DNA of 64,000 nucleotides. It comes from Halocafeteria seosinensis. Its lineage: Eukaryota. This document shows, piece after piece, positions 12,602 through 29,844 of this stretch. The DNA lies in contig LVLI01000146.1 in the NCBI GenBank assembly GCA_001687465.1, forward strand, positions 62,001 through 126,000, in the 5' to 3' direction. The position numbers and the translations under genes are program-made. The notes below the pieces were generated by a model. That model did not search any database. It was not told the origin of the DNA and saw only the letters and a list, made by a program, of their open reading frames with translations. Within the stretch, counting starts at the first letter, position 1. Every line of letters begins with the position of its first letter.

Positions 12602-15600
12602 TCATCCTTGGGTTACCTCGGGTGGGGCCGTGGACTTAAAGCGACGCATCTCTCTCTGCAACTTTCTCCAATACTTACGGTTGGAATCTCTATATTTTTC
12701 AAGTACTTGGGAATGGGACTGTATCAGGGACTTCGTCAAGTCTGCGGGAGTCAGTGTTGGAGTACTCAGGGCCCCAGAAAGTCTATGGCTAGAAGTCGAT
12801 TCAGCGGGAGCGATAGCTATTACATCTCGGTTGTGCCTAAAATGTCCACCTGTTTGGGAACTAATGGTTTTGCTGCCTAAAGTTGGAAGCTTTTTCCCCC
12901 TGCCAAGCTTTTTCCGAGCTCTGCGCTGTTTCCGGGCTAGGCAGCGAACCAATGGATCGTCTTGCTCCTTGGAGCATTTCTGTTTGTATTCAGTAGTGTT
13001 TTCCATCTTAGCTTGGGGGCGAGGAAGAAGATTGCTACTGTCGCTCAACCTCTTTTCCTCCCTCCGCAGACGGGAAACCAGAGTGTTTGACTTCCTCAAT
13101 CGATCCATGGTTAGTTCACTCGCTCTTTGTTCGCCGCGCTGTACCAGTTCTTTGACCTCTTCTCGGGTTACCCTTACCCCAGAGTCCTCTTCTCCTCCTC
13201 GAACTCCGCGGCCACCGAATCCTCCCGCAACGGTACCGTCCTGAGGGCGCCTCGATTGCATATCACTCATCATAGATCCACTCATGAAGGACGCTGATCC
13301 GGAAATGTCGGTTAAGGAACCAAACGAGTCAGAAGGGGTACTCCCTCCCCGCATCAGTTCAGCGTTGAACGCGTCAACACTTCCGCTGCTTTTACCACCG
13401 TCATCGTCGAAATTATCTTCAAAATTCAGGCTGATATCCTCCTCAAAATCGAAACCATCGCCATCATCATCTTCCTCAAACTCGGGCTGATCCTCAGTGC
13501 TTGCCTCGGACTCATTGGCATCGTCCGAGGAGGACGATTCAGTAAGACTGTCATAGTGTTCCGAGTTCTGTTGGGTGAAACGCCGATTTCCTCCACCTTG
13601 GAACCTCCTTCGTCCTTGCATCACATCATCCTGCGATATGCAAATACACAAATGTGATTGGGATCACCTTGCCTTACGAGAGAGAAACGTACCTCAGCAT
13701 ATGTTTCTTCACCTTCAGCTACTTCTACTATGTTCTTCATTCCTTCCTTTCCTCCTCTGAACAATTCGATCAGGTCTCCACCCGCCTTGTGTTTAGTCGC
13801 ATTCAGCACAGCATCTTTGTCTGTAAAGGCAACGATGTCACTTTCTTCCTTCTTTTTATGCCCTCGGTATATCTCTTTTCGGAGCCTTGAAATGTTGTTG
13901 TATAGTGAATGGTTGACTGTGTCTCCTGCCAAATATAGTCCGTCATCGGTATCAACTGATATGCGGAAACAGCCTCCATTCTCTATTCCCATGTTTGCCA
14001 TGTTATCCCTAGCCCCACGGCCGAGCGATCGGGAGCCCTTATTCTCATAGAGGCCGGGTTTTCCACTCGGGACCTCTTCGGAGTGAGCGGAAGGAGGAGT
14101 TGCCCTACTTCCCTTGTTGGCACCTTCATCTGTTAGAACTTCCTCAAACGATGTCTGCTGCCTCATTCCGGAAGTGGACTGTTCACGACTACGCCGAGTA
14201 TGCGATTGAGTTGAATCTTCACCTGAGTGGGCGCTGGATTGTTGCCTCTCAGTATCGAAGTAGCCCGGTACTTGGCGTTTCTGGGTCTGGAGCAGAAAGG
14301 TACGAGCATTGTATACCATTTGAGAGCGATACTTGTCCTCAAAAAATATGCCTATGAAGTACATCTTCTCCTCTTGCTTCAACCTTGCTTCGGCCCTCTC
14401 TCGCTTATTCAACTCTTCTGATGTTAATGCCACCTTCTCCTCCTCTGTGATGGGGTCATTCAGATAGCGAGGATCATCGGGTAAAATGACAACGCGTCTC
14501 TTGTTCCGCCCGTGGAATGAGCCTCTCCAACAATACTTCGAGGGAGTCGGTGGCTCGCCAGGGTTCACGTACAGCTCCAGATCCTTAATGGGAAAATTGG
14601 GACCAATTGGAGGGTCCTCGTTCTCATTCCCGCTGGAGCTTGAATATCTTAACGTCAAAGTAATAATAGGCTGAAAATGTTTCAGGCTTCTCGGAGCCGG
14701 GAACTTATAGTATATCCACCCTCCATATTCGGGAAGCGAAATATCCACATCCGAATTCCCATGAACTCTTTGAGCAGCCTTTCTTGCGCGCCTCTCTATT
14801 AGCTGTGTGGTAGGAGGCTGATTGTTCAATGGTGAACGCAGAGATTGGTCAGTTTTGGGTCTGTTAGATCCTCGCGAGTCAAACACCGTTTGTGGACGGT
14901 ACTGAGCAGTATGTGCTCTTCTACCACTTATTGCGGAACTTCTGGCGGTAAGCTTTGAGCTCTTTGAAACCCTGTCTGAGTTGGAACCTTTGATGCGGGA
15001 GGACAAGGCGGAGAGACGGGAAGTAGCTCTAGATACCACATTGTTGTCAGAGGTTTCCTTGGTGGCGTCAGTATCGAGTAGACCGAATTGTGATAAGTCA
15101 TATCCAGAATCGGAGGTGTACAGAAGCTCTTCCTTCGCATACTTCATGGTCTTGAGGATCTCCGTTTGCTTCTCAAAATATTGCTCAAATGGCAGCTGAT
15201 AACGCCATAGCATCGGTGGTGCATCCGAAGCTCCTTGTTCTCCTGACGATATTTCATTCGTCAGTCCAGAAAAGAAAATTCCCTGAGTGGAAACTCCCCA
15301 AGATGCTCTTCCATGCCGCCTTCCCTTGTTAGCCATGGAATACGTCCAACTGTATGGGGCAACGTCTTCATGGACGCTACATAGCAGTCTCAAAGGGGGA
15401 GGAATAGGTACTGTGTATGAGGTGTCGTCTCCCGCACCAACAACCCGCGGAGAAACCGGGTCTTTCCGGCCACCCCCGTCGACGTTGAACTCGCCGGAGT
15501 CTTCATCCTGGAAGTCTGGTTTTAAGAGTTCCGGATCGCATAAGGTCACACCACGCATTAAATGAAACCCAGTGTAAGGAGGTTTCGCTTCCCTTCGAGA

Positions 15601-18600
15601 TGAGTACTCAATATCCGTTTCCTCAACCTGGGTAGTCGACTCCTCAGTCTTTCCACCTTGTTGTTCGACTTGGTGGTCCGAACCGCTTCCAGCTGGAATT
15701 TTCTCCATTTCCCTCTTACCAGAGACTTGCTCTTGAAATGAAACGCGCTTGCGATTCGATAGAAAAGTTTCTTCTCCACTGAGCTCGGTCTCCTTGGCGG
15801 CGTCCTCTTCTTCAGAACTCTTTAAGTCTTCCGGATGCTTGGCGGCGTCCTCTTCTTCAGAACTCCTTAAGTCTTCCGGATGCTCGGCGGCGTCCTCTTC
15901 TTCAGAACTCTTTAAATCTTCTGTACGCTCGGCACTCATATCCTTTGATGACTCATACGTTGGGGGAGGGCTGGCTACGGCTCTATCTGCGGTAGTTTCT
16001 TTGCCGTCTGATGCATGGTCAGTTGCATCACTACCTTCGGTGGGGATCTCATGAGAAACATCTCCCATTTGCGAAGCGCTGCCCTCCTCCGTGTAGATTT
16101 GTGATGCTTCGGCACTATAGCTGCTTTCATACTGAGCAGCGTTCTGGATTTCAATGGTAGAATTGCCCGGTGACATTTCAACTTCTCCAGAATCAAGTAC
16201 TTCTGAACCCTGTTCAGAAGCAGCTTCTGACTTATTAAACTTTAATTCTTGGGAGACTGAAACAGAACTTGTTGGACGAGGTCCCTCGGCAGTAGCAGGC
16301 TGACTCTCTTTTTCCCATTCCCGTGGAGTTGGTTTTCGTCCGCTTGACTTTTTGTCGGGTTTCTTCTTTGATGCGTTGCCAATGTTCCTCCGGCCCCTAT
16401 CCGTATTGCCAGTCTCAGGTTTTGCTGGGCGCGAACGAACTTCATTTTTCTTACCACTCTTTGCGGGTTTAGTGTCTCTTTGTCCTGAGTGACTGTCACC
16501 ACTTGTCTTGGTTGCTTGAGCGGCGGCTCCTGACTTGCTGGCTCCGTGGCTTTCTACTGACTTGCTCATTTTTTCATCATGCATGTAATGGGGAAAATTG
16601 TCAGGCTCCACTTTCCTTTCGCTAAGGTTGCGACCGCTTGTCTTGGGTGCTTGAGTGGCGGCTCCGGCTCCACCGTTTTTATCATGCTTCCATTCGGCAT
16701 ACTGCGGAAAGCTGTCAGGTTGCGTTTTCCATTCACCAAGACTTCGCGCATCTTCTGTCCCAGCAGATTCAGGGGGCTCTCGCACGCTTCGGGAATTTAG
16801 TTCTGCATCCCGCTTCCTTGGACGATCGGTATTGTCTCTCGAAACGGGAGCGGTTGGTTGAGTACTTTCCTGAGAAACAGTGGCACGAGGTGTCGCAGCG
16901 TCCACCATGTGTTCTTCAGGCATCTTGCGGATAAATTGCTGCTGTTTCTTCTTGGAAAACTTCTTGACGTCCTTCGTAGCCTTCTGGGTTCCTGCTTGCT
17001 GCACCTTTTCGTGAAGCAATGATTCTGCCTTAGGATCACCCAAGTATTCTGCTTGAGTACGACCATCAGTGTCTTGGGAGCTAGACCCCGTGTTCGGTTG
17101 CTCTTCTCTGCTTTCTCGGCTATCCGCTTTTGCATTCGTCTCTACCATGCTCTTGTTCGGCTCGTTCGCCATTTTGTGATTAGAGATTTTATCACTATTG
17201 GTTGTGTCGGACTTACTCGAGGATTTTCTAGTAGCTGACGCTGAAATGTTCACTAAGTACTTCGCAGCGTTGCCAGTGGGACCATCCTCTACTCCTCTCT
17301 CCCCTTCATCTTCTAGCAAGAACTGGTTTATCACTTCTTCATTAAAGGATACATCAACTGCTTCCTTCGATATGCGATGGGATTCTCGCTCAATATCTGC
17401 GGAACTTGCTCTTGGGCTATGCCCTTGTTTTCCAGAAAGGCTCATGGAAGAACCGTCATTAACCTGATGGCCATCTTGTTGTACTTTCGAGAGGGACGTT
17501 ATCGAATAAGCGTGTTCGTACTTCCTCCTCAAAGAATCCATCAATCGGGAAGCTTTAGCGTAACGCCTTTGCTGGCGGTCCATTAGCGATACGTAAAAAT
17601 GTTGAGCTACGCCACGCGCGAAACCAACGTTCTCTCCGTACAGTTCCTCTATATTGTTAGACTCAGGAACAACTTCCCAATCGATTTCTGGGGGTTCACT
17701 GCTCGGAGCATTGTCTACCCTATTTAGTACCGGAGCCGGTCTGACCACCAAGAAGTCAAACTGAGAGGGTGTTGTACTGCGTAGAACAAATGGGTCTTTC
17801 AACGTGAAAGCGCCACCAACCGTTTCCAATGAGTTAAACCTCGTTGGAGACTTCGTTTTCTTAAAGTCTGCCTTAGAGGACTCGTTATCCACATAAGAAG
17901 CAGTGGAGAGGACTCCATCTGCAACACCAAAACTCATCGTAGTCTTAATTTTCGATTTCTTCCGTTCATTCGCCTTTTGACCATCTTTTGTTACCTCGCT
18001 GTCCTGGAGAGCAACAGAAGCACTCGTTTCGGAGTCAGCCATCGAGACATCATCCATCACCAGGGAACAAATCATATTGTACCCGTTTTGACAATTCTCT
18101 AGCGTACCTGAGGAAATGTCCTGGATGATGATGCGTTGATTCTTCTTGTCAAATTCGAGATCAGTGCCCTCAAAGAGAATCGAGCTGTATACAGCGATAT
18201 AATCCACATGGGTTACTTCGATTCCAGAGGTCCGAATGTTCCTCAAAATTCCCGCGTTATACAATCTGTCTTGAATGACTCTTTTACCTAGGTTGCTTAT
18301 GTCAACGGCCCATGGCTCATTCGACAAAACTACTTCAAGCGTCTTCAATGGAATATATCCTTTCCGTAAAATATCGCAGCCAATCGTCTTTCTCAAGAGT
18401 TTAAGAAGATGAGTAGTCACGCTCCCATTAGTCTTACTCTCTCGGTATATCCCGTTCCATTGTACCCTTCTCTCGGCAACGGCTTTTAGCATTGTTTCTC
18501 CGACCAATTCCAAAACTAAGTACATGTCGATGTACGTCGTTGTTGGGTCATCTGAAGGGTCAGTAGAGGCACCAATTAATTCTTCATAAAGATCATGCTC

Positions 18601-20307
18601 GAAGGTGCCCGCAGTTGCAAGGGTATTACTCCCGCTTTGATCAATGCCTTTGAAATGAGGGCACACTAGAAGTAGCCTGCAAAGAGTCCAAATATAATGA
18701 GGCGCAACATAGCCTCCCAAACAGACTTGTACTGCCTGCACTACCCGGTGTAAAGGTACGACCCTCGTGGGTGGGCCACCAGTCTCGTCGTAATCAACCA
18801 TACGACTCAATGATTCAAGCCTACTATGTAGAAGCGGAGATTTTGAGCAATACTTCTTTGTAGCTAGCCAATTGAATACCGTTTCGTCAACGAATTCAGA
18901 ATTTTCGTATATGCCATCCGTCGAAGTATATAAGTCCCGATAGTGCAAGTTAAACACTCCATTTTTTCCACATAGATAGTGATAATAGGAGTATACGCTC
19001 GATTTCAACCACGCAGGGGGCTTTTCATTGTCGAAGAACTGGTGAACGTCATCAGATCGCGCGTCTGAGATAGTTGAGGCGACAGTTGAGGCGATATTCC
19101 AAAAGCGTAGTAATGCTTGCAAAGGGATTAATTTCGATGACTCTTGTGCAACCTCGGTCAAAAGCTTGTAGCATCGAACTACTAAGAAGGTCAAGTCGTG
19201 ATAGTCTTCGGAAAGGAGGCGCCTTTGTACTTTGAGGTAAGGTTTTACAGTTAACCCAAACAAGTCGCATAGGAGTGAACATATCGGCGCACCATGGTGG
19301 TAGACAAGGGACGAAAAGAAGTTTGATATATGAGCATCTGCTGTTACGGTGCCAAATTGTTCTTGATAGTGCCTTTCGAGGATTTCATATATGTTTCCGC
19401 TGGTGGATCCGTCTTGTAAGTTTGTCTTCTGTCTGACGTTAAACTTTGTGGCCAATACGCGAAGCAACTCTGTCGACTTGGATATTGTGTAGTTTAAAGT
19501 CCAAATACGGAATTCATTACCGGATGTTGCCCCTGTAAGTTTTTGTTCTGGAATACTTGTAGTTGACTGCCGCCGCGACCTTCCTGGTGGATATGCTTCC
19601 GAATTCCACAGACGAGTATTGCAATCTAACCCCTCATTGACTCGTCGAACTTCTCCCAAAATTGACAGTAAATCCGACCACGTTAATCGAACAAGCTTCT
19701 CCGATGCGGTGGACCCACTGCCACTCGTAGTGGGACGAAACATCTCTCCAGACTGCCCCCTCGCAAGTTTCTCAGGACTCCAGCTTGAACTTCCTGTTTC
19801 TAGCCTGTTAGTCTCCCTAGATGAACTCGGAGAGGATAACTCTTCATTACGTTGCTGCTCACGGACTGAGCTCAAACGGCTACTTCCGCGCGATGCATGC
19901 AGGGACAATTCTGCGCTATCCACCCCTCGCGAGCCACCGAAGAATCCATCGAGAAAATAAGGTGTCACATATTGCCCTTTGGTACTTTGATTGGATCTAA
20001 CGGAGGAATTGATTAGGTTCGCCAGTTCACCAAGGGTCAAGTGGCAGCCGGCTTCAGAAGAACTCTCGTCCCGAGATGGAGCTCGTTCGTTTCCACGAAG
20101 GTGCTGCAGGGTCTCCAATTGTACCGCCCTGTCAAACTGCTGCTTAAGGGCGATGGTATCAATGATACGAAATAACTGCTCTCCTGCTTCTCCTTCATTG
20201 GTCCTCGAAAAGGAAGGACTGGAAGGAACGAGCACTGCCGATCCACTCTGAGGGCGGTGAGAAACACGATGTTGGCTGCTTCCTAGCTGGTAATTGTTGT
20301 TCACCAT
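12602..20307 (-). CDS. Very large (~2550 aa) uncharacterised protein, 2 exons (intron 13692-13631)
   Basis: The 2228-aa ORF joins in frame to the 349-aa ORF through GAG|GTACGT...CGCAG|GAT (62 nt). It has a globular N-terminal third, a long disordered middle and a small beta-sandwich-like segment. Confidence 0.85.
15796..15921. repeat. Coding tandem repeat, 45 bp x about 2.8 (HPEDLKSSEEEDAAK)
   Basis: Unit ggcggcgtcctcttcttcagaactc(t/c)ttaa... starts at 15796, 15841 and 15886. Confidence 0.95.
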
Positions 20308-24399: not shown

Positions 24400-27300
24400 T
24401 TACTCACCGTCGAGATGTTTCCTTAGACGGTTCATCAACGTGGCCTTGAGGCCAGTGGAATCCAAGCCACGTTCCTGAAGAGCCTCTCGCAATTCGCCCA
24501 CCTTCATTGATTGTATAGGCATCTCAGGTTTCTGGGGATACGCAGCCTTACGGTTTCGGAGACGATTTATCAATTCGGCTTTTCTGCCAGTATCATCGAG
24601 CCCATACTGGCGAAGTCGTTGTTTCAGGTCGGACACCTTTAAGGATACATAGTCTTCCTCCTGTTCCTGAGGCTGCTGAGGCGCTTCCTCAGAAGTTTCT
24701 GTCTGTCCTGCTTCCACAGGGGCACTCAACCTCTGTATCAAGTCGGCCTTCTTCCCGCTAGTGTCCATTCCTTTTTCTCGCAGCAGCTGTCTTAACTCAG
24801 TCACCTTCATCGAAGCAAGCATTTCTTTGTCCTGCTCAGGAGCCGATGCAGCCTCATCCGCAGCAGCAGAGCAAGGACCTCCTTGTAGTCTTTCGATCAA
24901 CTCTGTTTTCTTTCCGTTGGTTGCCATGCCCAATTCCTGCAACCTTGCACGTAACTGAGGTACGGTCCACGAACTGTAATCGGTTGGAACCTCCGCGTCC
25001 GTGTTTGCTGCTTCTTGTGCAGCTTCGGTCTCCTCGGTATCCTGTAAACCATCTTGTAGCCTAGAAATAAGTTCTTGCTTCTTCCCATTCGCGGGTAAGC
25101 CACGATTTGTTAGCTCCTTGCGCAGTTGCGTTACCGTCCACATGCTGTAGTCTATCGGCTCTGCTTCGGCAGGTGGTTGCTCAACTGCTCCGTCGGCGAC
25201 CTGAGACGTTGCGGATAGTATCCGATCAATAAGTTCCTGCTTTTTCCCCACCGAGCTTAAGCTGTACGAGTTGGCAAGTTCCCGAAGCTGCGGAACCGTT
25301 CGCTTCTGTAAATCACCGTGGGTGAAAACTGGGGATTCTTCAACGTCTTGTTGCTCTTGGTCTTCCTGGGAATCTTCCCTAGTTTCTTCACCTTCCATTT
25401 TTGTATCATCATCAAAAACCTCTGCCGAGCTAACTTCACGGTCCCGAACATCCCCTTCCCCGCTGGTTCGGCGGCGCTTCGTATCATCAGTGGCCTCCGG
25501 AGTCTCAGTACTGTGTCGTTTGACAGACTTCGAGCGCCGGTTCTGGAAACCTGGCGTCGAGTACCGTGCTGACATTGAAAATCGTCCGGGGGTTGTGCCG
25601 ACATCTGTCTCCACTTCTGACTCCGAAATCGTTTCGAGCTCAGGAGAGAACACGTAGCCTTCTTCGCTATCGTATTCTTCTTCTTGATCATTACCAGTTT
25701 CTTGCACCCCAGCGTCAGCTTCTTCACCTCCGCTTAACTCCCCTTCTTCCGGACCTTCGTCCTCCTCCGCAGGTTTGCTATTCAAGTCATTATGCCCCTG
25801 TAGCTCATCGGGTTCAGCCTCTTCCTCTTCCATTTTATGGGTGTCCTCAACGGCACCTTCAAAACGGCCGGTAGACTGTTCAGCAGCTAAATCATCTTCG
25901 GTAGCTTCCACTGGCCGCTGTGAATCCTCCTGTTGCACATTGACTTCGTCTGATTTTCCCTCATCATACACGGAATATAACACCCCCATCCCTTCTTTTG
26001 GAGGTGCTTCTGCGTCATCGTCACGGGCCCCCATGGCAACATCTTCCCGCTCCACATTTTCATCTTCCCCTTCGAAGAACTTATGGTCGTTGGGACGATC
26101 CAACCCTTCGCTTAGCCCCATACTCTTGCGCGCAGCATATCGACTGTGCAGGCCACTACCATCCTGTACTCCTTCCTCATTTCCGGCACCAGCCTCCGCA
26201 ATTTCTTCTTGCAAAGCAGGATCCATCCTTAAATGACCGTTGAGGATCAATGAAGAAATATCTTTGGAGCTTAAATTTTCCCAATCAATCTCTTGATCTT
26301 CTCCTTCGGCTTCGGGTTCTTCATCCCCAAAGCCTTTCTGATCTGCCTGCGTGAACAGGCCTTCGGCGGGTTCTATAACAGAGCGGATGACTTCACCCTC
26401 TTCCCCAAAGAACAGATGGACATTTCCGTTTTCGGAGTGTAGGGATCGGTACGAGGTTACACCTGCTTCGTGAAGACTTTGCGCTTGCTCTTCATCAAAG
26501 TGCTCTGAAACATCGACTTGATCCACCGCACTTGCTCGATTGGAAGAACCGGTACTTTGACGTCGCGAGCGGATTGCTTCTCTGATAGGGGTAGCAAGAG
26601 CCTTCCTAATGGAGGTATCCACGTTGTTCACTTCATCCGCAGATTCCTGATAATTTTCTATATCCTGCTCGTTGCTTGCGGAAAACAATTTTCCCACGGA
26701 AACAACCGCCGAGGCTGGGCTCTTACCCGGAGTTCTGCGTGACCGCGGCGTCGCATTCTTCAAGGATACAGGTGTCTTTGTAGACGTGCCCTTGTACGCA
26801 GACTTAGCACCGTAGCTTTTTCGCAGCTGCTGGATGTCTTTTCTCACAGGAGTTGCAAGCTTCTGGTTGTTTGCATCTTCGGCCGCTTCTCGTTCCTCTT
26901 CTTCATCTTCAGCAGCTGTAGGAAGCTCAGACTTCTTTGAGGTAGAACTGCGAGCCACTCTCCTAGAAGACTTTGCTCCGGAACTCTTTCGGTGCTTTTG
27001 GATCTCTTTACGCAAAGGCGTGGCAAGCTTATCTCTAGCAGCTGGTTCTACGCTATCATTCGAACTGGTATGACTTTCGTAGCTCCCCTCTGAAGGCTTG
27101 CGAACAGACCGAGCACCATAACTCTGCCTCGGGGCTTGGATTTCTTGACGCAGTGGAGTAGCAACCGTGGATTTTGCTGGCAACCCTTCCGAATAGTCAG
27201 TTTCTGCTTCGCTGTCCTTGTAAGCAGATTGAGCCCCGTAACTTTTCCTGCGAGATTCAATGTCATTCCTAATTGCTTCGGGGATTCTACTTGCGGACTC

Positions 27301-28608
27301 CTCTTCTGGCACATCCTGGCTCGACTCAGTTGCTGTTCCTTCCCCTTCGTTGGTGTCAGGCCCCGATGGTCCGCCAGGGTTGCTCTCTTCAAATGTAGTG
27401 TTTGCAGATTCAGCGGCATCCTTCGGGAACATGTAAGAGGACTTCGCCCCGTAGCTCTGACGTCGTTGCTCAATATCATGTTTGAGAGGGGTTGCGATTG
27501 TCCCCTCGGTCGTATTGAACTGGTTATCGCTAATAGACTCGGGCTCATCATTTCCACTGTCATGATGTTGTTCGTCAGTAGCATTTCCTTCAGATGACGC
27601 CTCGCTATCAGCGTCATCTTCTTCGGCGTTATCTGAGTCGCTCCGATCATTTGACCTCTCAGTCTCTTCTGAGGCGCCCATGACTTGGTCTTCAGCCTCA
27701 ACTTGCTGATTGCCGCTCTCTTCATCAAGAATTTCAATATCCGAAGAGTCACTTCCATCGTCTTCATGCGCAGGCGCTTCCTGAGTCTTGACAACAGACT
27801 TTGCTCCGTAACTTTGTCGCTTGCTTTCAATAGCCTGTTTCAACGGCGTCCTCAAATGGGTGGTAGAAGTGGAACCCGCGGGGGAATTGTCGTCGAAGAA
27901 TTGATGCCGAGGAGTACTCTCAAACCCTCCCTGATCAGTGAAAGAATCTTGTTCACTTTCGACAACTTGAGGTGCTGGTGCTCGAGGAGTCTGGTTTTCG
28001 GCTTCAACAGAATTGTTCAAGGACGCAATCCGTTCTTCTCGTTGTTCTTGATGACTTTGACTTCTCTCCCTAAGGCTTTGTAGGGATTGTTTCCCAGTTG
28101 ATCCCATAGATTTCCGTGCAGCCGGAGACTTCGAGGTTTGAGAGGTATCTACGTTGCGTTCTTTGAGCACACTATCCAATGCAAGAGTCTGTTCGAGAGA
28201 ACCGTAGTCCTGACTCCCTTGGTAAGGCTGCGGCACAGTTTGGAGTTTCTCAGGAGTGGGGAGGTTCTTGTATTCATCCATATACACGAACTGAAACCGG
28301 CGATCGCTGATATGGAGCATATCACCGTCACGCAGACAAAGCGGTTGATCGCTAAGAAGGTCATTGTTCACTCGAATTGGGTTCGTTTTGGACAACTGGG
28401 TGAGCCAAACACGCTGATTTTCCACAGAGAGCATTGCATGCTCACGTGAAACATCAGGCCTGCGGACACGAATGTCACTGTCTTGGCATCTACCCATGAG
28501 GGCATCCGTTTGCAGTGGGAATCTGCCTTGCTCGTTGCCATTGCGTCCAAAAACGATTAGTTCTCCGTAGACGGGAGCGTCATCGGTTTCTATATCAAGG
28601 GCTTCCAT
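24400..28608 (-). CDS. FHA (Ki-67-type) + 7 internal repeats + acidic region + 6 SAP domains; putative chromatin/mitotic chromosome protein
   Basis: 1402-aa single ORF. FHA: GR..SDIRV..PDVSREH...SKTNPIRVN...LRDGDML.I.DRRF. Six SAP motifs of type (T/K)VxxLRxxLxxxGLxxxGxKxELIxRL at about 24403-25315. Confidence 0.92.
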   Translation of the reverse strand: MEALDIETDDAPVYGELIVFGRNGNEQGRFPLQTDALMGRCQDSDIRVRRPDVSREHAMLSVENQRVWLTQLSKTNPIRVNNDLLSDQPLCLRDGDMLHISDRRFQFVYMDEYKNLPTPEKLQTVPQPYQGSQDYGSLEQTLALDSVLKERNVDTSQTSKSPAARKSMGSTGKQSLQSLRERSQSHQEQREERIASLNNSVEAENQTPRAPAPQVVESEQDSFTDQGGFESTPRHQFFDDNSPAGSTSTTHLRTPLKQAIESKRQSYGAKSVVKTQEAPAHEDDGSDSSDIEILDEESGNQQVEAEDQVMGASEETERSNDRSDSDNAEEDDADSEASSEGNATDEQHHDSGNDEPESISDNQFNTTEGTIATPLKHDIEQRRQSYGAKSSYMFPKDAAESANTTFEESNPGGPSGPDTNEGEGTATESSQDVPEEESASRIPEAIRNDIESRRKSYGAQSAYKDSEAETDYSEGLPAKSTVATPLRQEIQAPRQSYGARSVRKPSEGSYESHTSSNDSVEPAARDKLATPLRKEIQKHRKSSGAKSSRRVARSSTSKKSELPTAAEDEEEEREAAEDANNQKLATPVRKDIQQLRKSYGAKSAYKGTSTKTPVSLKNATPRSRRTPGKSPASAVVSVGKLFSASNEQDIENYQESADEVNNVDTSIRKALATPIREAIRSRRQSTGSSNRASAVDQVDVSEHFDEEQAQSLHEAGVTSYRSLHSENGNVHLFFGEEGEVIRSVIEPAEGLFTQADQKGFGDEEPEAEGEDQEIDWENLSSKDISSLILNGHLRMDPALQEEIAEAGAGNEEGVQDGSGLHSRYAARKSMGLSEGLDRPNDHKFFEGEDENVEREDVAMGARDDDAEAPPKEGMGVLYSVYDEGKSDEVNVQQEDSQRPVEATEDDLAAEQSTGRFEGAVEDTHKMEEEEAEPDELQGHNDLNSKPAEEDEGPEEGELSGGEEADAGVQETGNDQEEEYDSEEGYVFSPELETISESEVETDVGTTPGRFSMSARYSTPGFQNRRSKSVKRHSTETPEATDDTKRRRTSGEGDVRDREVSSAEVFDDDTKMEGEETREDSQEDQEQQDVEESPVFTHGDLQKRTVPQLRELANSYSLSSVGKKQELIDRILSATSQVADGAVEQPPAEAEPIDYSMWTVTQLRKELTNRGLPANGKKQELISRLQDGLQDTEETEAAQEAANTDAEVPTDYSSWTVPQLRARLQELGMATNGKKTELIERLQGGPCSAAADEAASAPEQDKEMLASMKVTELRQLLREKGMDTSGKKADLIQRLSAPVEAGQTETSEEAPQQPQEQEEDYVSLKVSDLKQRLRQYGLDDTGRKAELINRLRNRKAAYPQKPEMPIQSMKVGELREALQERGLDSTGLKATLMNRLRKHLDGE

Positions 28609-29844
28609 GGTGAAGGCTTAGTATCTGTCGACTCGATTCCAAGGGGAGATGGACTCTGCGCCGGAAAAAAAAAGCAGGGATGACGCCCAAATCCAAAACA
28701 CATCCCATGGGTCGATTCAACACTTCGCGTGTGAGCTAGATGACGTTTTTACCTAACTACTCATGTTACTTGGTTTTTATGAGGATCCGTAGAAAGTACC
28801 GAATAAGCCTCCGAAACGACCCACCGGAGCAGCCGTTAAGCCAACTTGTTGCGAGAACACCCTGTGTAAACGGCTCCCCTCAAGACGAAGCACGACACTC
28901 ACGCAGGCACATTTGCCTACCATACGTACTGTATGGGTGGAAAAATACCCTATCCTCCCCTTGTACAAGTGCAGTAGCAATTTAACACCCTTCATTGTAT
29001 GCCCTCGCCGTGTATGGGTCCTGTTTGCTCTTCGCCAATCTCGACTCTTTGGGGAAGTGGTTCCCAGGCTCGAAATATACGCTCCACTTACCTACAAAAT
29101 ACTTCCGCTTCTCTTTAATGCAAGGCAACACATTCACTTACACATTCATTTTTGGTGGGAAAACACAATTAATTCAACCCATTTCTGGCTACTTCGTATA
29201 GGCGGGCACACTTCCACAAAAAATTTTCGCGCCACAAGTTAGTGCGCGTTAAATTGTAATTGCGCCAAATTCTACGTCAGGATAGAACTGGCCATTACTA
29301 TGTGTGTGCTATTATTTTGGACATTGAGAAAATGCGTAGCCTACGAGTTGTGACCCATCCAGTTCTCTACATGCATGCATGCCGGCTGGGGTTGCCAGCT
29401 TGGAACCGCGGAAGGCGAGAAATGCAAGAGCCTGACAAGACATCCTCCTGCACCTATACTGCGTTGATATTATCATAATCGTGGAAAGACTATAGCATTA
29501 TTGAATTTATTATTATAGCGGCAGGGTGGCCCACATCATTCGCGAGCGACCGAAGACACCTCTGCTGGACACACTTCCTTTAGACGCTAGCACCCGAGGC
29601 AAATAATGAACCATTGATAAGCAATGGTCAATAGCAGTTCAACATTTCTCTTCATGTGTATTCCTTAAGAAGTAATCACTACCATGGTTCGCCCTGTCCA
29701 CAAGATGACTTCCACAGTGGAAGTTCCACTCTTCCCTTGAAGTTTGCCAAGGGCATAGGTTGTAATTCAAACAGTGTCAAACACATGCGACTTGATAGTG
29801 TTGATTCCCAGTTCGGTCGATTTTCCACATTGTGTTTGAGCACT

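What the first reader, a model, noticed from the sequence alone, without database searches (positions are those of the whole stretch)
24400..28608. Ki-67-like protein in a protist: Ki-67-type FHA, phospho-repeat array and six SAP domains
Seen: an N-terminal FHA, about 1000 aa of disordered sequence with 7 repeats, and 6 tandem SAP domains at the C-terminus. Knowledge: the FHA shares motifs I recall from human MKI67 FHA (FPL, GR..DIR, PxVSxxH, SxTNPxxVN, PxxLxxGD, IxDRxF). Ki-67 is FHA + CDK-phosphorylated repeats + C-terminal DNA-binding domain, acts as the mitotic chromosome surfactant and is mostly studied in vertebrates. Inference: this is a Ki-67 homologue or analogue in which a SAP array replaces the LR domain as the chromatin anchor, implying a perichromosomal-layer system in a unicellular eukaryote.
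Basis: partly seen in the sequence, partly recalled or inferred. Interest (0 to 1): 0.88.

Follow-up and report, generated by a model that had tools for sequence, protein, structure and literature searches.

The report
Ki-67/bridgin relative with six SAP anchors
This real, spliced gene encodes a relative of the chromosome proteins Ki-67 and bridgin, a family already reported outside vertebrates, but it ends in six folded SAP domains that likely replace the usual positively charged tail as its grip on DNA.

Summary
A single-exon 1402-aa CDS (24400-28608, minus strand) lies on one spliced contig and carries an N-terminal FHA, seven 20-aa TP/RxS repeats and six SAP domains. The FHA is Ki-67-type: human Ki-67 is the top PDB hit by sequence (54.5 bits, next 27.3) and by fold. 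An animal Ki-67 profile scores it 82.5 bits, against at most 34 for other solved FHAs. The family outside vertebrates is not new: fungal bridgin (2021) and a 2026 preprint list fungal, amoebozoan and other protist members, and this scan noted three on other DNA. A perichromosomal layer does not follow, because bridgin is a kinetochore linker. This protein is acidic (pI 4.6), lacks RVxF and has no basic tail. What I did not find described: (1) a SAP array in place of the basic tail, also seen in one unnamed protein with a Ki-67-type FHA (two more are partial cases); (2) a TP(L/I)RxxI repeat shared with a Rhodelphis Ki-67-like protein. Lineage, localisation and a NIFK partner were not determined. 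Verdict: new variant of a known kind.

The parts
29092..29169 (-). Upstream non-coding exon (5' leader)
   Evidence: Joined to 28655 in contigs of X2, X3 and X4
28656..29091 (-). 436-nt GT..AG intron in the 5' leader; an in-frame stop lies 4 codons upstream of the ATG, so the start is fixed
24400..28608 (-). Single-exon CDS, 1402 aa (P0001), pI 4.57, net charge -126
   Evidence: covered without a gap by one X4 contig; public record P0002 differs by one residue, P494R, matching the variant at 27131
28279..28569 (-). Ki-67-type FHA domain, aa 14-110; canonical phosphothreonine-binding residues G39, R40, S54, H57, N76, N81 present
   Evidence: the GRSHNN set as named in 10.64898/2026.06.18.733134
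27796..27852 (-). Repeat 1 (aa 253-271): TP(L/I/V)(R/K)xxI, then RxS(Y)G
27439..27495 (-). Repeat 2 (aa 372-390)
27226..27282 (-). Repeat 3 (aa 443-461); lacks the TP here, kept in relative P0003
27106..27162 (-). Repeat 4 (aa 483-501)
26968..27024 (-). Repeat 5 (aa 529-547)
26800..26856 (-). Repeat 6 (aa 585-603)
26539..26595 (-). Repeat 7 (aa 672-690); aa 478-700 form the main basic patch of the middle region (net +13, 8 S/T-P sites)
26173..26511 (-). Conserved islands, aa 700-750 and 776-812 (16-18 of 25 identical to P0003); no Pfam match
25543..25665 (-). Strongly conserved island, aa 982-1022, with three S/T-P sites (18/25 and 22/25 identical to P0003)
25210..25317 (-). SAP 1 (aa 1098-1133); not present in P0003
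25048..25155 (-). SAP 2 (aa 1152-1187)
24877..24984 (-). SAP 3 (aa 1209-1244)
24718..24825 (-). SAP 4 (aa 1262-1297)
24550..24657 (-). SAP 5 (aa 1318-1353)
24415..24522 (-). SAP 6 (aa 1363-1398)

Best explanation
The protein is a member of the Ki-67/bridgin FHA family that likely grips chromatin through its six SAP domains and would act as a phosphorylation-switched polymer brush on chromosomes. Shown: Ki-67-type FHA, seven TP/RxS repeats, an acidic middle region, six SAP domains, all on one transcript. Inferred: (1) the SAP array binds DNA with little sequence preference and high avidity, doing the job of the basic tail of Ki-67 or bridgin; (2) the ~1000-aa acidic chain extends from the chromatin and keeps chromatin masses apart by steric and charge repulsion; (3) the basic repeat patch (net +13, 8 S/T-P sites) is neutralised by CDK, and possibly Aurora/PKA-type, phosphorylation in mitosis and becomes sticky for RNA or acidic partners again on dephosphorylation; (4) the distal FHA captures a phosphothreonine partner such as NIFK. 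Family membership is about 0.9 likely. The broad chromatin-coat mechanism, rather than a kinetochore-restricted one, is about 0.5.
For: FHA: human Ki-67 is the top of 24 PDB sequences matched, 54.5 bits against 27.3 for the next, and the top two Foldseek hits (E 2e-9 and 4e-9, rmsd 1.3-1.5; next E 3e-7). A three-sequence animal Ki-67 profile gives P0001 82.5 bits, against at most 34 for any other solved FHA and 27.8 for MDC1. A 50-sequence vertebrate-type profile gives 75.6, against max 54.2 and median 30.6 for 90 multi-FHA proteins. The tree groups it with Ki-67 at 97/89. Phospho-sites look selected: 12 of 14 S/T-P sites are kept in P0003 at 44% overall identity. The repeat recurs in proteins with a Ki-67-type FHA: 17 motif copies in Rhodelphis marinus P0004 and 3-4 in P0050. 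FHA + repeats + acidic region + SAP recurs in P0050. The anchor is exchangeable: Ki-67's basic domain replaces bridgin's without sequence similarity (PMC7794384 passages). [quoted passage not shown] Acidic family members exist: Drosophila pI 4.5, bridgin middle pI 4.65. Mitotic phosphorylation turns human Ki-67 net negative.
Against: No localisation, binding or cell-cycle data. No RVxF motif, no PP1_bind or KI67R Pfam match, no LFxTP motif. Net -126, with the last 150 aa net 0, whereas vertebrate-type hits have median pI 9.6. R/K is 1.4, while the preprint reports low R/K in all its homologues. Bridgin, the closest match in layout, is kinetochore-restricted. The tree holds no eukaryotic non-Ki-67 FHA, and its rows were picked by similarity to the query. 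Some multi-FHA proteins (one named as deltaproteobacterial) reach 49-58 bits on the animal profile. The AF2 model used an alignment with three animal Ki-67 rows and only 1 of 5 models was confident, so the fold ranking is not independent.
Confidence: 0.5

Rival explanations
1. Bridgin-like kinetochore linker: the FHA and the acidic repeat region are recruited by outer-kinetochore proteins, and the SAP array then holds centromeric DNA. There is no perichromosomal layer.
For: Bridgin is 1295 aa with an N-terminal FHA, an acidic (pI 4.65) unstructured region with 13 repeats and a non-specific DNA-binding C-terminus (PMC7794384 passages). P0001 is 1402 aa with an acidic middle (pI 4.46), 7 repeats and a DNA-binding-type C-terminus. 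Bridgin is the non-animal member with functional data in the papers I read.
Against: Six folded SAPs would be expected to bind chromatin broadly (inference). Bridgin's C-terminus is basic and unstructured and it has a putative PP1 site; neither is seen here.
Confidence: 0.3
2. A Ki-67-family FHA reused in an interphase nucleolar or RNP scaffold. The SAPs bind RNA or DNA as in SAF-A or Tho1, and the protein has no special mitotic role.
For: The nearest solved SAPs include hnRNPUL1 (E1B-AP5), Tho1/Hcc-1 and SF3B2. The SAF-A SAP binds RNA as well as DNA. No PP1 motif is present.
Against: Conserved full CDK-type TPxR/K sites in 6 of 7 repeats and 12 of 14 S/T-P sites kept in P0003 point to cell-cycle control. 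SAP hits of 18-30 bits on 35-aa domains do not assign function.
Confidence: 0.12
3. Not a Ki-67 orthologue: an FHA of another eukaryotic or bacterial subfamily joined to a SAP array, for example a DNA-damage scaffold, resembling Ki-67 by convergence.
For: FHA identity to Ki-67s is only 40-47%. Eukaryotic non-Ki-67 FHAs were absent from the tree. Bacterial-type FHAs score up to 58 bits on the animal profile.
Against: MDC1, CHFR, KIF13B, Dun1, aprataxin and Mek1 FHAs score at most 27.8 bits on the profile that gives P0001 82.5. The repeat is shared with Rhodelphis P0004, which has a 115.7-bit FHA, an RVxF motif and Ki-67-like FxTP motifs.
Confidence: 0.08

Closest known systems
Bridgin (Bgi1), Cryptococcus neoformans, and homologues (Sridhar et al. 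2021, PMC7794384; seen: passages, Supplementary Data 4, peer-review passages; main supplementary PDF unreadable)
   Same: N-terminal FHA, ~900-1000-aa acidic low-complexity middle with repeats, C-terminal DNA-binding region, similar length; Ki-67 is named as its metazoan homologue.
   Different: Bridgin ends in a basic unstructured domain (pI 11.2) and has a putative PP1 site; this protein ends in six SAP domains and has no RVxF. Repeat similarity was not testable.
Vertebrate Ki-67 (MKI67) (review PMC8354752; seen: abstract and passages)
   Same: Ki-67-type FHA at the N-terminus, repeats with CDK sites encoded in one exon, C-terminal chromatin-binding position.
   Different: No PP1_bind, KI67R or LR domain; acidic rather than basic; 20 S/T-P sites (1 per 70 aa, against 1 per 35 in human); unrelated repeat sequence; 0 of 50 vertebrate-type hits carry a SAP.
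Non-vertebrate Ki-67-like proteins (Haider et al. 2026, bioRxiv 10.64898/2026.06.18.733134; seen: text parts 1-4 of 11, Discussion, passages; Table 1 and supplements not seen)
   Same: Family defined by a Ki-67-type N-terminal FHA and a long disordered region; includes Capsaspora, Monosiga, Thecamonas, Dictyostelium, Hondaea and the acidic Drosophila protein.
   Different: No SAP domain is mentioned in the main text, and the paper describes no conserved sequence outside the FHA. It trims an unnamed structured C-terminus from Hondaea (aa 920-1139), which could be a comparable folded anchor.
Rhodelphis marinus EukProt protein P0004 (2062 aa)
   Same: Ki-67-type FHA and the same TP(L/I/M)(R/K)xxIxxRR repeat (17 copies).
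   Different: Basic (pI 10.2), has RVxF and FxTP motifs, no SAP.

Membership tests
Ki-67/bridgin family (broad) | N-terminal FHA of the Ki-67 subfamily | tested here: met
   caveat: no eukaryotic non-Ki-67 FHA in the tree, and no CDD search was available
Ki-67/bridgin family (broad) | Long, mostly disordered middle region | tested here: inconclusive
   Composition and absence of Pfam matches fit; no disorder predictor run; conserved islands present
Ki-67/bridgin family (broad) | Repeats and CDK consensus sites in the middle region | tested here: met
   7 repeats; 20 S/T-P sites, 9 of them S/T-P-x-K/R; density within the published range of 1 per 8-128 aa
Vertebrate Ki-67 (strict) | PP1-binding RVxF motif / PP1_bind domain | tested here: not met
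   0 matches to [RK]x0-1[VI]{P}[FW]; no PF15276. The preprint says most, not all, homologues have one
Vertebrate Ki-67 (strict) | KI67R repeats / FKELF-type motif | tested here: not met
   No PF08065; no [LMIV]Fx[TS]P
Vertebrate Ki-67 (strict) and bridgin | Basic C-terminal DNA-binding domain (LR domain / BD) | tested here: not met
   aa 1091-1402: pI 5.15, net -9; six SAP domains of net +1 to +3 each instead
Vertebrate Ki-67 (strict) | Net basic protein | tested here: not met
   pI 4.57; acidic members are nonetheless published
Ki-67 (function) | FHA binds phosphorylated NIFK | not testable with these tools
Ki-67 (function) | Nucleolar / perichromosomal localisation and proliferation-linked expression | not testable with these tools
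   Only contigs were available; they show transcription, not level or timing
Bridgin (function) | KMN-dependent kinetochore localisation; bridgin consensus repeat | not testable with these tools
WH2 actin-binding repeat | Match to the WH2 profile or to solved WH2 peptides | tested here: not met
   No WH2 among Pfam hits for aa 247-700 at E<=10; repeat profile against PDB gave 6 hits, none WH2; weak power for 20-aa motifs

The most novel reading that the evidence does not exclude
Ki-67/bridgin is an ancient eukaryotic chromosome-coating scaffold with a swappable anchor. One or more microbial lineages use arrays of folded SAP domains plus an acidic brush instead of a basic tail. An ancestral TP(L/I)RxxIxxRRxS repeat, lost in vertebrates, is the CDK-controlled switch. 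These organisms would then build a perichromosomal layer with reversed charge logic.
Probability: 0.3. Interest if true: 0.75.

Novelty: new variant of a known kind. Interest (0 to 1): 0.45.

Why it matters
How Ki-67 holds on to chromatin, and whether its brush works by net positive charge or by tethered length and charge patterning, are open questions, and its natural anchor is disordered and hard to dissect. A natural variant with six discrete, mutable DNA-binding domains and an acidic brush is a ready test of both. A short repeat conserved between distant lineages runs against the published view that nothing outside the FHA is conserved, and gives a defined phospho-switch to assay. The existence of protist Ki-67-like proteins is not itself news.

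Tried and rejected
No genome was held, so no NIFK, kinetochore-gene or paralogue search and no lineage placement. A word-seeded search with the FHA found only the self record (1 of 22 candidates). A full-length alignment search gave 3 hits among 7979 scored candidates and was limited by the candidate cap, so the range of the SAP variant is not measured. Two metagenome scans found no relative (0 of 355 and 0 of 598 pattern matches). ESM Atlas gave only FHA clusters at 0.82 or below, with no SAP family shown: leads only. Single-sequence AF2 failed (pLDDT 34.5). A full-length Ki-67 profile against PDB (8 hits) lost nearly all other FHAs to filters and was replaced by an FHA-length profile. The regular expression was miswritten (0 matches) and is disregarded; the self-match test in that call is used. 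Assembly chimera or spurious ORF: rejected. Genome-wide acidity as the sole cause of the low pI: 4 of 14 window ORFs have pI below 5, so it may contribute, but SAP-bearing relatives P0003, P0050 and P0167 are acidic too (4.5, 4.4, 5.0). Plant BORI/FHA3 (10.1101/2022.01.07.475321, one passage): no Ki-67 or SAP mention; dropped without a sequence test. PMC11164224 (passages) added nothing. No run is on record as RNA; the RNA nature of X2-X4 is inferred from skipped GT-AG introns, and all four runs are one study, possibly the window's source. No complex prediction was run, as no partner sequence was available.
Full report
Observation. The minus strand holds a 1402-aa ORF at 24400-28608. Pfam finds one FHA (aa 38-100) and six SAP stretches. 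Seven 20-aa repeats lie between aa 253 and 690; each has TP(L/I/V)(R/K)xxI followed by RxS(Y)G, and one lacks the TP. Their mean pairwise identity is 52%, and the best self-match is 15/20 against at most 10/20 in 100 shuffles. Contigs of runs X2-X4 skip a GT..AG intron at 28656-29091 in the leader. One X4 contig spans the whole CDS without gaps, and the same runs skip further GT-AG introns in neighbouring genes. The gene is therefore transcribed as one unit. These runs are one study and may be the window's source. A public record, P0002, differs by one residue. No genome is held and I did not place the organism, so 'protist' is likely but not shown.

The FHA is Ki-67-type. Of 24 PDB sequences matched, human Ki-67 scores 54.5 bits and the next 27.3. 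A search of 1.84 billion representatives gave 3625 hits at E<=1e-3, of which 150 were listed. They split into single-stretch hits at 40-47% identity, mostly at the start of long proteins, and multi-FHA proteins at mostly about 30%. Of 25 listed hits scanned in Pfam, 17 carry PP1_bind, 5 have only an FHA, 2 are multi-FHA/TPR proteins and 1 (P0050) has FHA + SAP. Named ones include fish, frog, turtle and mussel Ki-67, and two multi-FHA proteins are from Deltaproteobacteria. In reverse, a profile of three animal Ki-67 FHAs scores P0001 at 82.5 bits, while all other solved FHAs score 34 or less: MDC1 27.8, CHFR 24.4, KIF13B 24.2. A profile of 50 vertebrate-type FHAs gives 75.6, against at most 54.2 for 90 multi-FHA proteins. 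A tree of 42 rows (14 of the 50 vertebrate-type, 6 candidates, the 22 best-scoring multi-FHA) groups P0001 with Ki-67 at 97/89, with the base of the group unresolved. Foldseek on an AF2 model (pLDDT 80.7; 1 of 5 models confident; alignment included Ki-67 rows) ranks the two Ki-67 entries first. Limits: the training rows were found with the query, no eukaryotic non-Ki-67 FHA was in the tree, and three multi-FHA domains reach 49-58 bits.

It departs from vertebrate Ki-67. It has no RVxF, no PP1_bind, no KI67R and no LFxTP motif. Its pI is 4.57 and net charge -126, and the SAP region is not basic overall. The vertebrate-type hits have median pI 9.6 (range 5.2-11.1), and 0 of 50 carry a SAP. The basic residues of the middle concentrate in the repeats (net 0 to +8 each), between mostly acidic spacers; aa 478-700 is net +13 with 8 S/T-P sites.

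Relatives. Searching with the repeat region found P0003, P0004 and P0005 besides the self record (4 hits of 7992 candidates scored). P0003 (unnamed, 1141 aa, 44% identical) has six repeats and five SAPs but starts at about aa 285 of P0001, so it shows no FHA; I could not tell whether it is truncated. It keeps 12 of 14 S/T-P sites and several islands at 16-22 of 25 identity, against 2-6 of 25 in the acidic spacers. P0004 (Rhodelphis marinus) has a Ki-67-type FHA (115.7 bits), 17 copies of the repeat motif, RVxF and FxTP motifs, a pI of 10.2 and no SAP. P0050 (unnamed, 942 aa) has a Ki-67-type FHA (92.6 bits), 3-4 repeats, an acidic middle, two SAPs and a weak Tudor-like end. P0167 (unnamed, 1919 aa) has four SAPs and an RVxF motif, but a divergent FHA (43 bits, below some bacterial-type ones; long branch) and no such repeat, so it is a doubtful member. 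The repeat pattern occurs once in 1 of 50 vertebrate-type hits. All four SAP-bearing proteins are acidic and the SAP-less Rhodelphis protein is basic; the sample is too small for more than a hint. The repeat matches no Pfam family, WH2 included, and no solved natural motif.

What is known. Bridgin of Cryptococcus (PMC7794384; passages and Supplementary Data 4) is FHA + acidic unstructured region with 13 repeats + basic DNA-binding tail. It is recruited to outer kinetochores, its tail can be replaced by Ki-67's, and homologues are listed in fungi, Dictyostelium and animals (Ki-67). A 2026 preprint (10.64898/2026.06.18.733134; text parts 1-4 of 11, Discussion and passages) reports Ki-67-like proteins in invertebrates, fungi, Capsaspora, Monosiga, Thecamonas, Dictyostelium and Hondaea, including an acidic Drosophila one. 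This scan noted three such genes on other DNA. I found no description of SAP-bearing members. The search for Ki-67 + FHA + SAP domain + homolog gave 1 unrelated paper. The search for FHA domain + SAP domains + tandem + protist + chromatin gave 19, none on this by title or abstract start. 'SAP' occurs once in each key paper's main text, where the passages show 'saprotrophic' and 'sapiens'. Table 1 and supplements of the preprint and the main supplement of the bridgin paper were not visible and may bear on this; the preprint trims an unnamed structured C-terminus from the Hondaea protein.

Mechanism. I commit, at about 0.5, to a chromatin-tethered brush. The SAP array would be the anchor; SAF-A's SAP binds DNA and RNA (PMC12176297 passages), and avidity from six copies is my inference. 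The acidic chain would be the spacer, the repeat patch a kinase-switched basic block, and the FHA a distal phosphothreonine reader. Human Ki-67 itself turns net negative when CDK1-phosphorylated, so an acidic chain is compatible with the mitotic state. The main rival (0.3) is a bridgin-like kinetochore linker, which fits the layout equally well. An interphase RNP scaffold (0.12) and a non-orthologous FHA-SAP protein (0.08) are less likely. None of the functional steps is shown.

Verdict. A real gene and a very likely member of the broad Ki-67/bridgin family. It fails the strict vertebrate Ki-67 criteria for PP1 docking, KI67R repeats and a basic tail. The family's presence in microbial eukaryotes is published; the SAP-array anchor and the cross-lineage repeat are the new parts. 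New variant of a known kind, interest 0.45.

Noticed in passing
window 12602-20307 (-): ORFs of 2228 aa and 339 aa that overlap by one base are joined by a 62-nt GT-AG intron near 13630-13691 in contigs of X2-X4, so they probably form one gene of about 2500 aa; neither part has a Pfam match at E<=0.01.
   Followed up: partly
window 27131: Variant giving Pro (window) or Arg (contigs of X1, X3, X4; record P0002) at aa 494 inside repeat 4; Arg restores the RRxS consensus.
   Followed up: partly
P0050 aa 897-933: Weak Tudor-like match (E 0.03-0.04) after the two SAPs, a possible histone-mark reader beside the DNA anchor.
   Followed up: no
P0004 (Rhodelphis marinus): Carries both the TP(L/I)RxxI repeat seen here and Ki-67-like FxTP motifs plus RVxF, so it may link the microbial and vertebrate repeat types.
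   Followed up: partly
window 29848 onward (+): Reading frame whose start resembles the ciliary protein TMEM138 (recalled resemblance; the 68-aa piece had no Pfam match); it would point to a flagellated organism if confirmed.
   Followed up: partly
window 180-62437: Neighbours are ordinary housekeeping genes (topoisomerase II end, tRNA intron endonuclease, RAP-domain, WD40, Ariadne, CAF1, PKD-domain, CTP synthase, COG2, acyl-CoA synthetase), with no sign of a functional cluster.
   Followed up: yes
ESM Atlas clusters: FHA clusters of 683-968 aa mostly from Streptophyta scored 0.75-0.82 to these proteins, although the 2026 preprint concludes plants lack Ki-67; below the tool's threshold, a lead only.
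   Followed up: no
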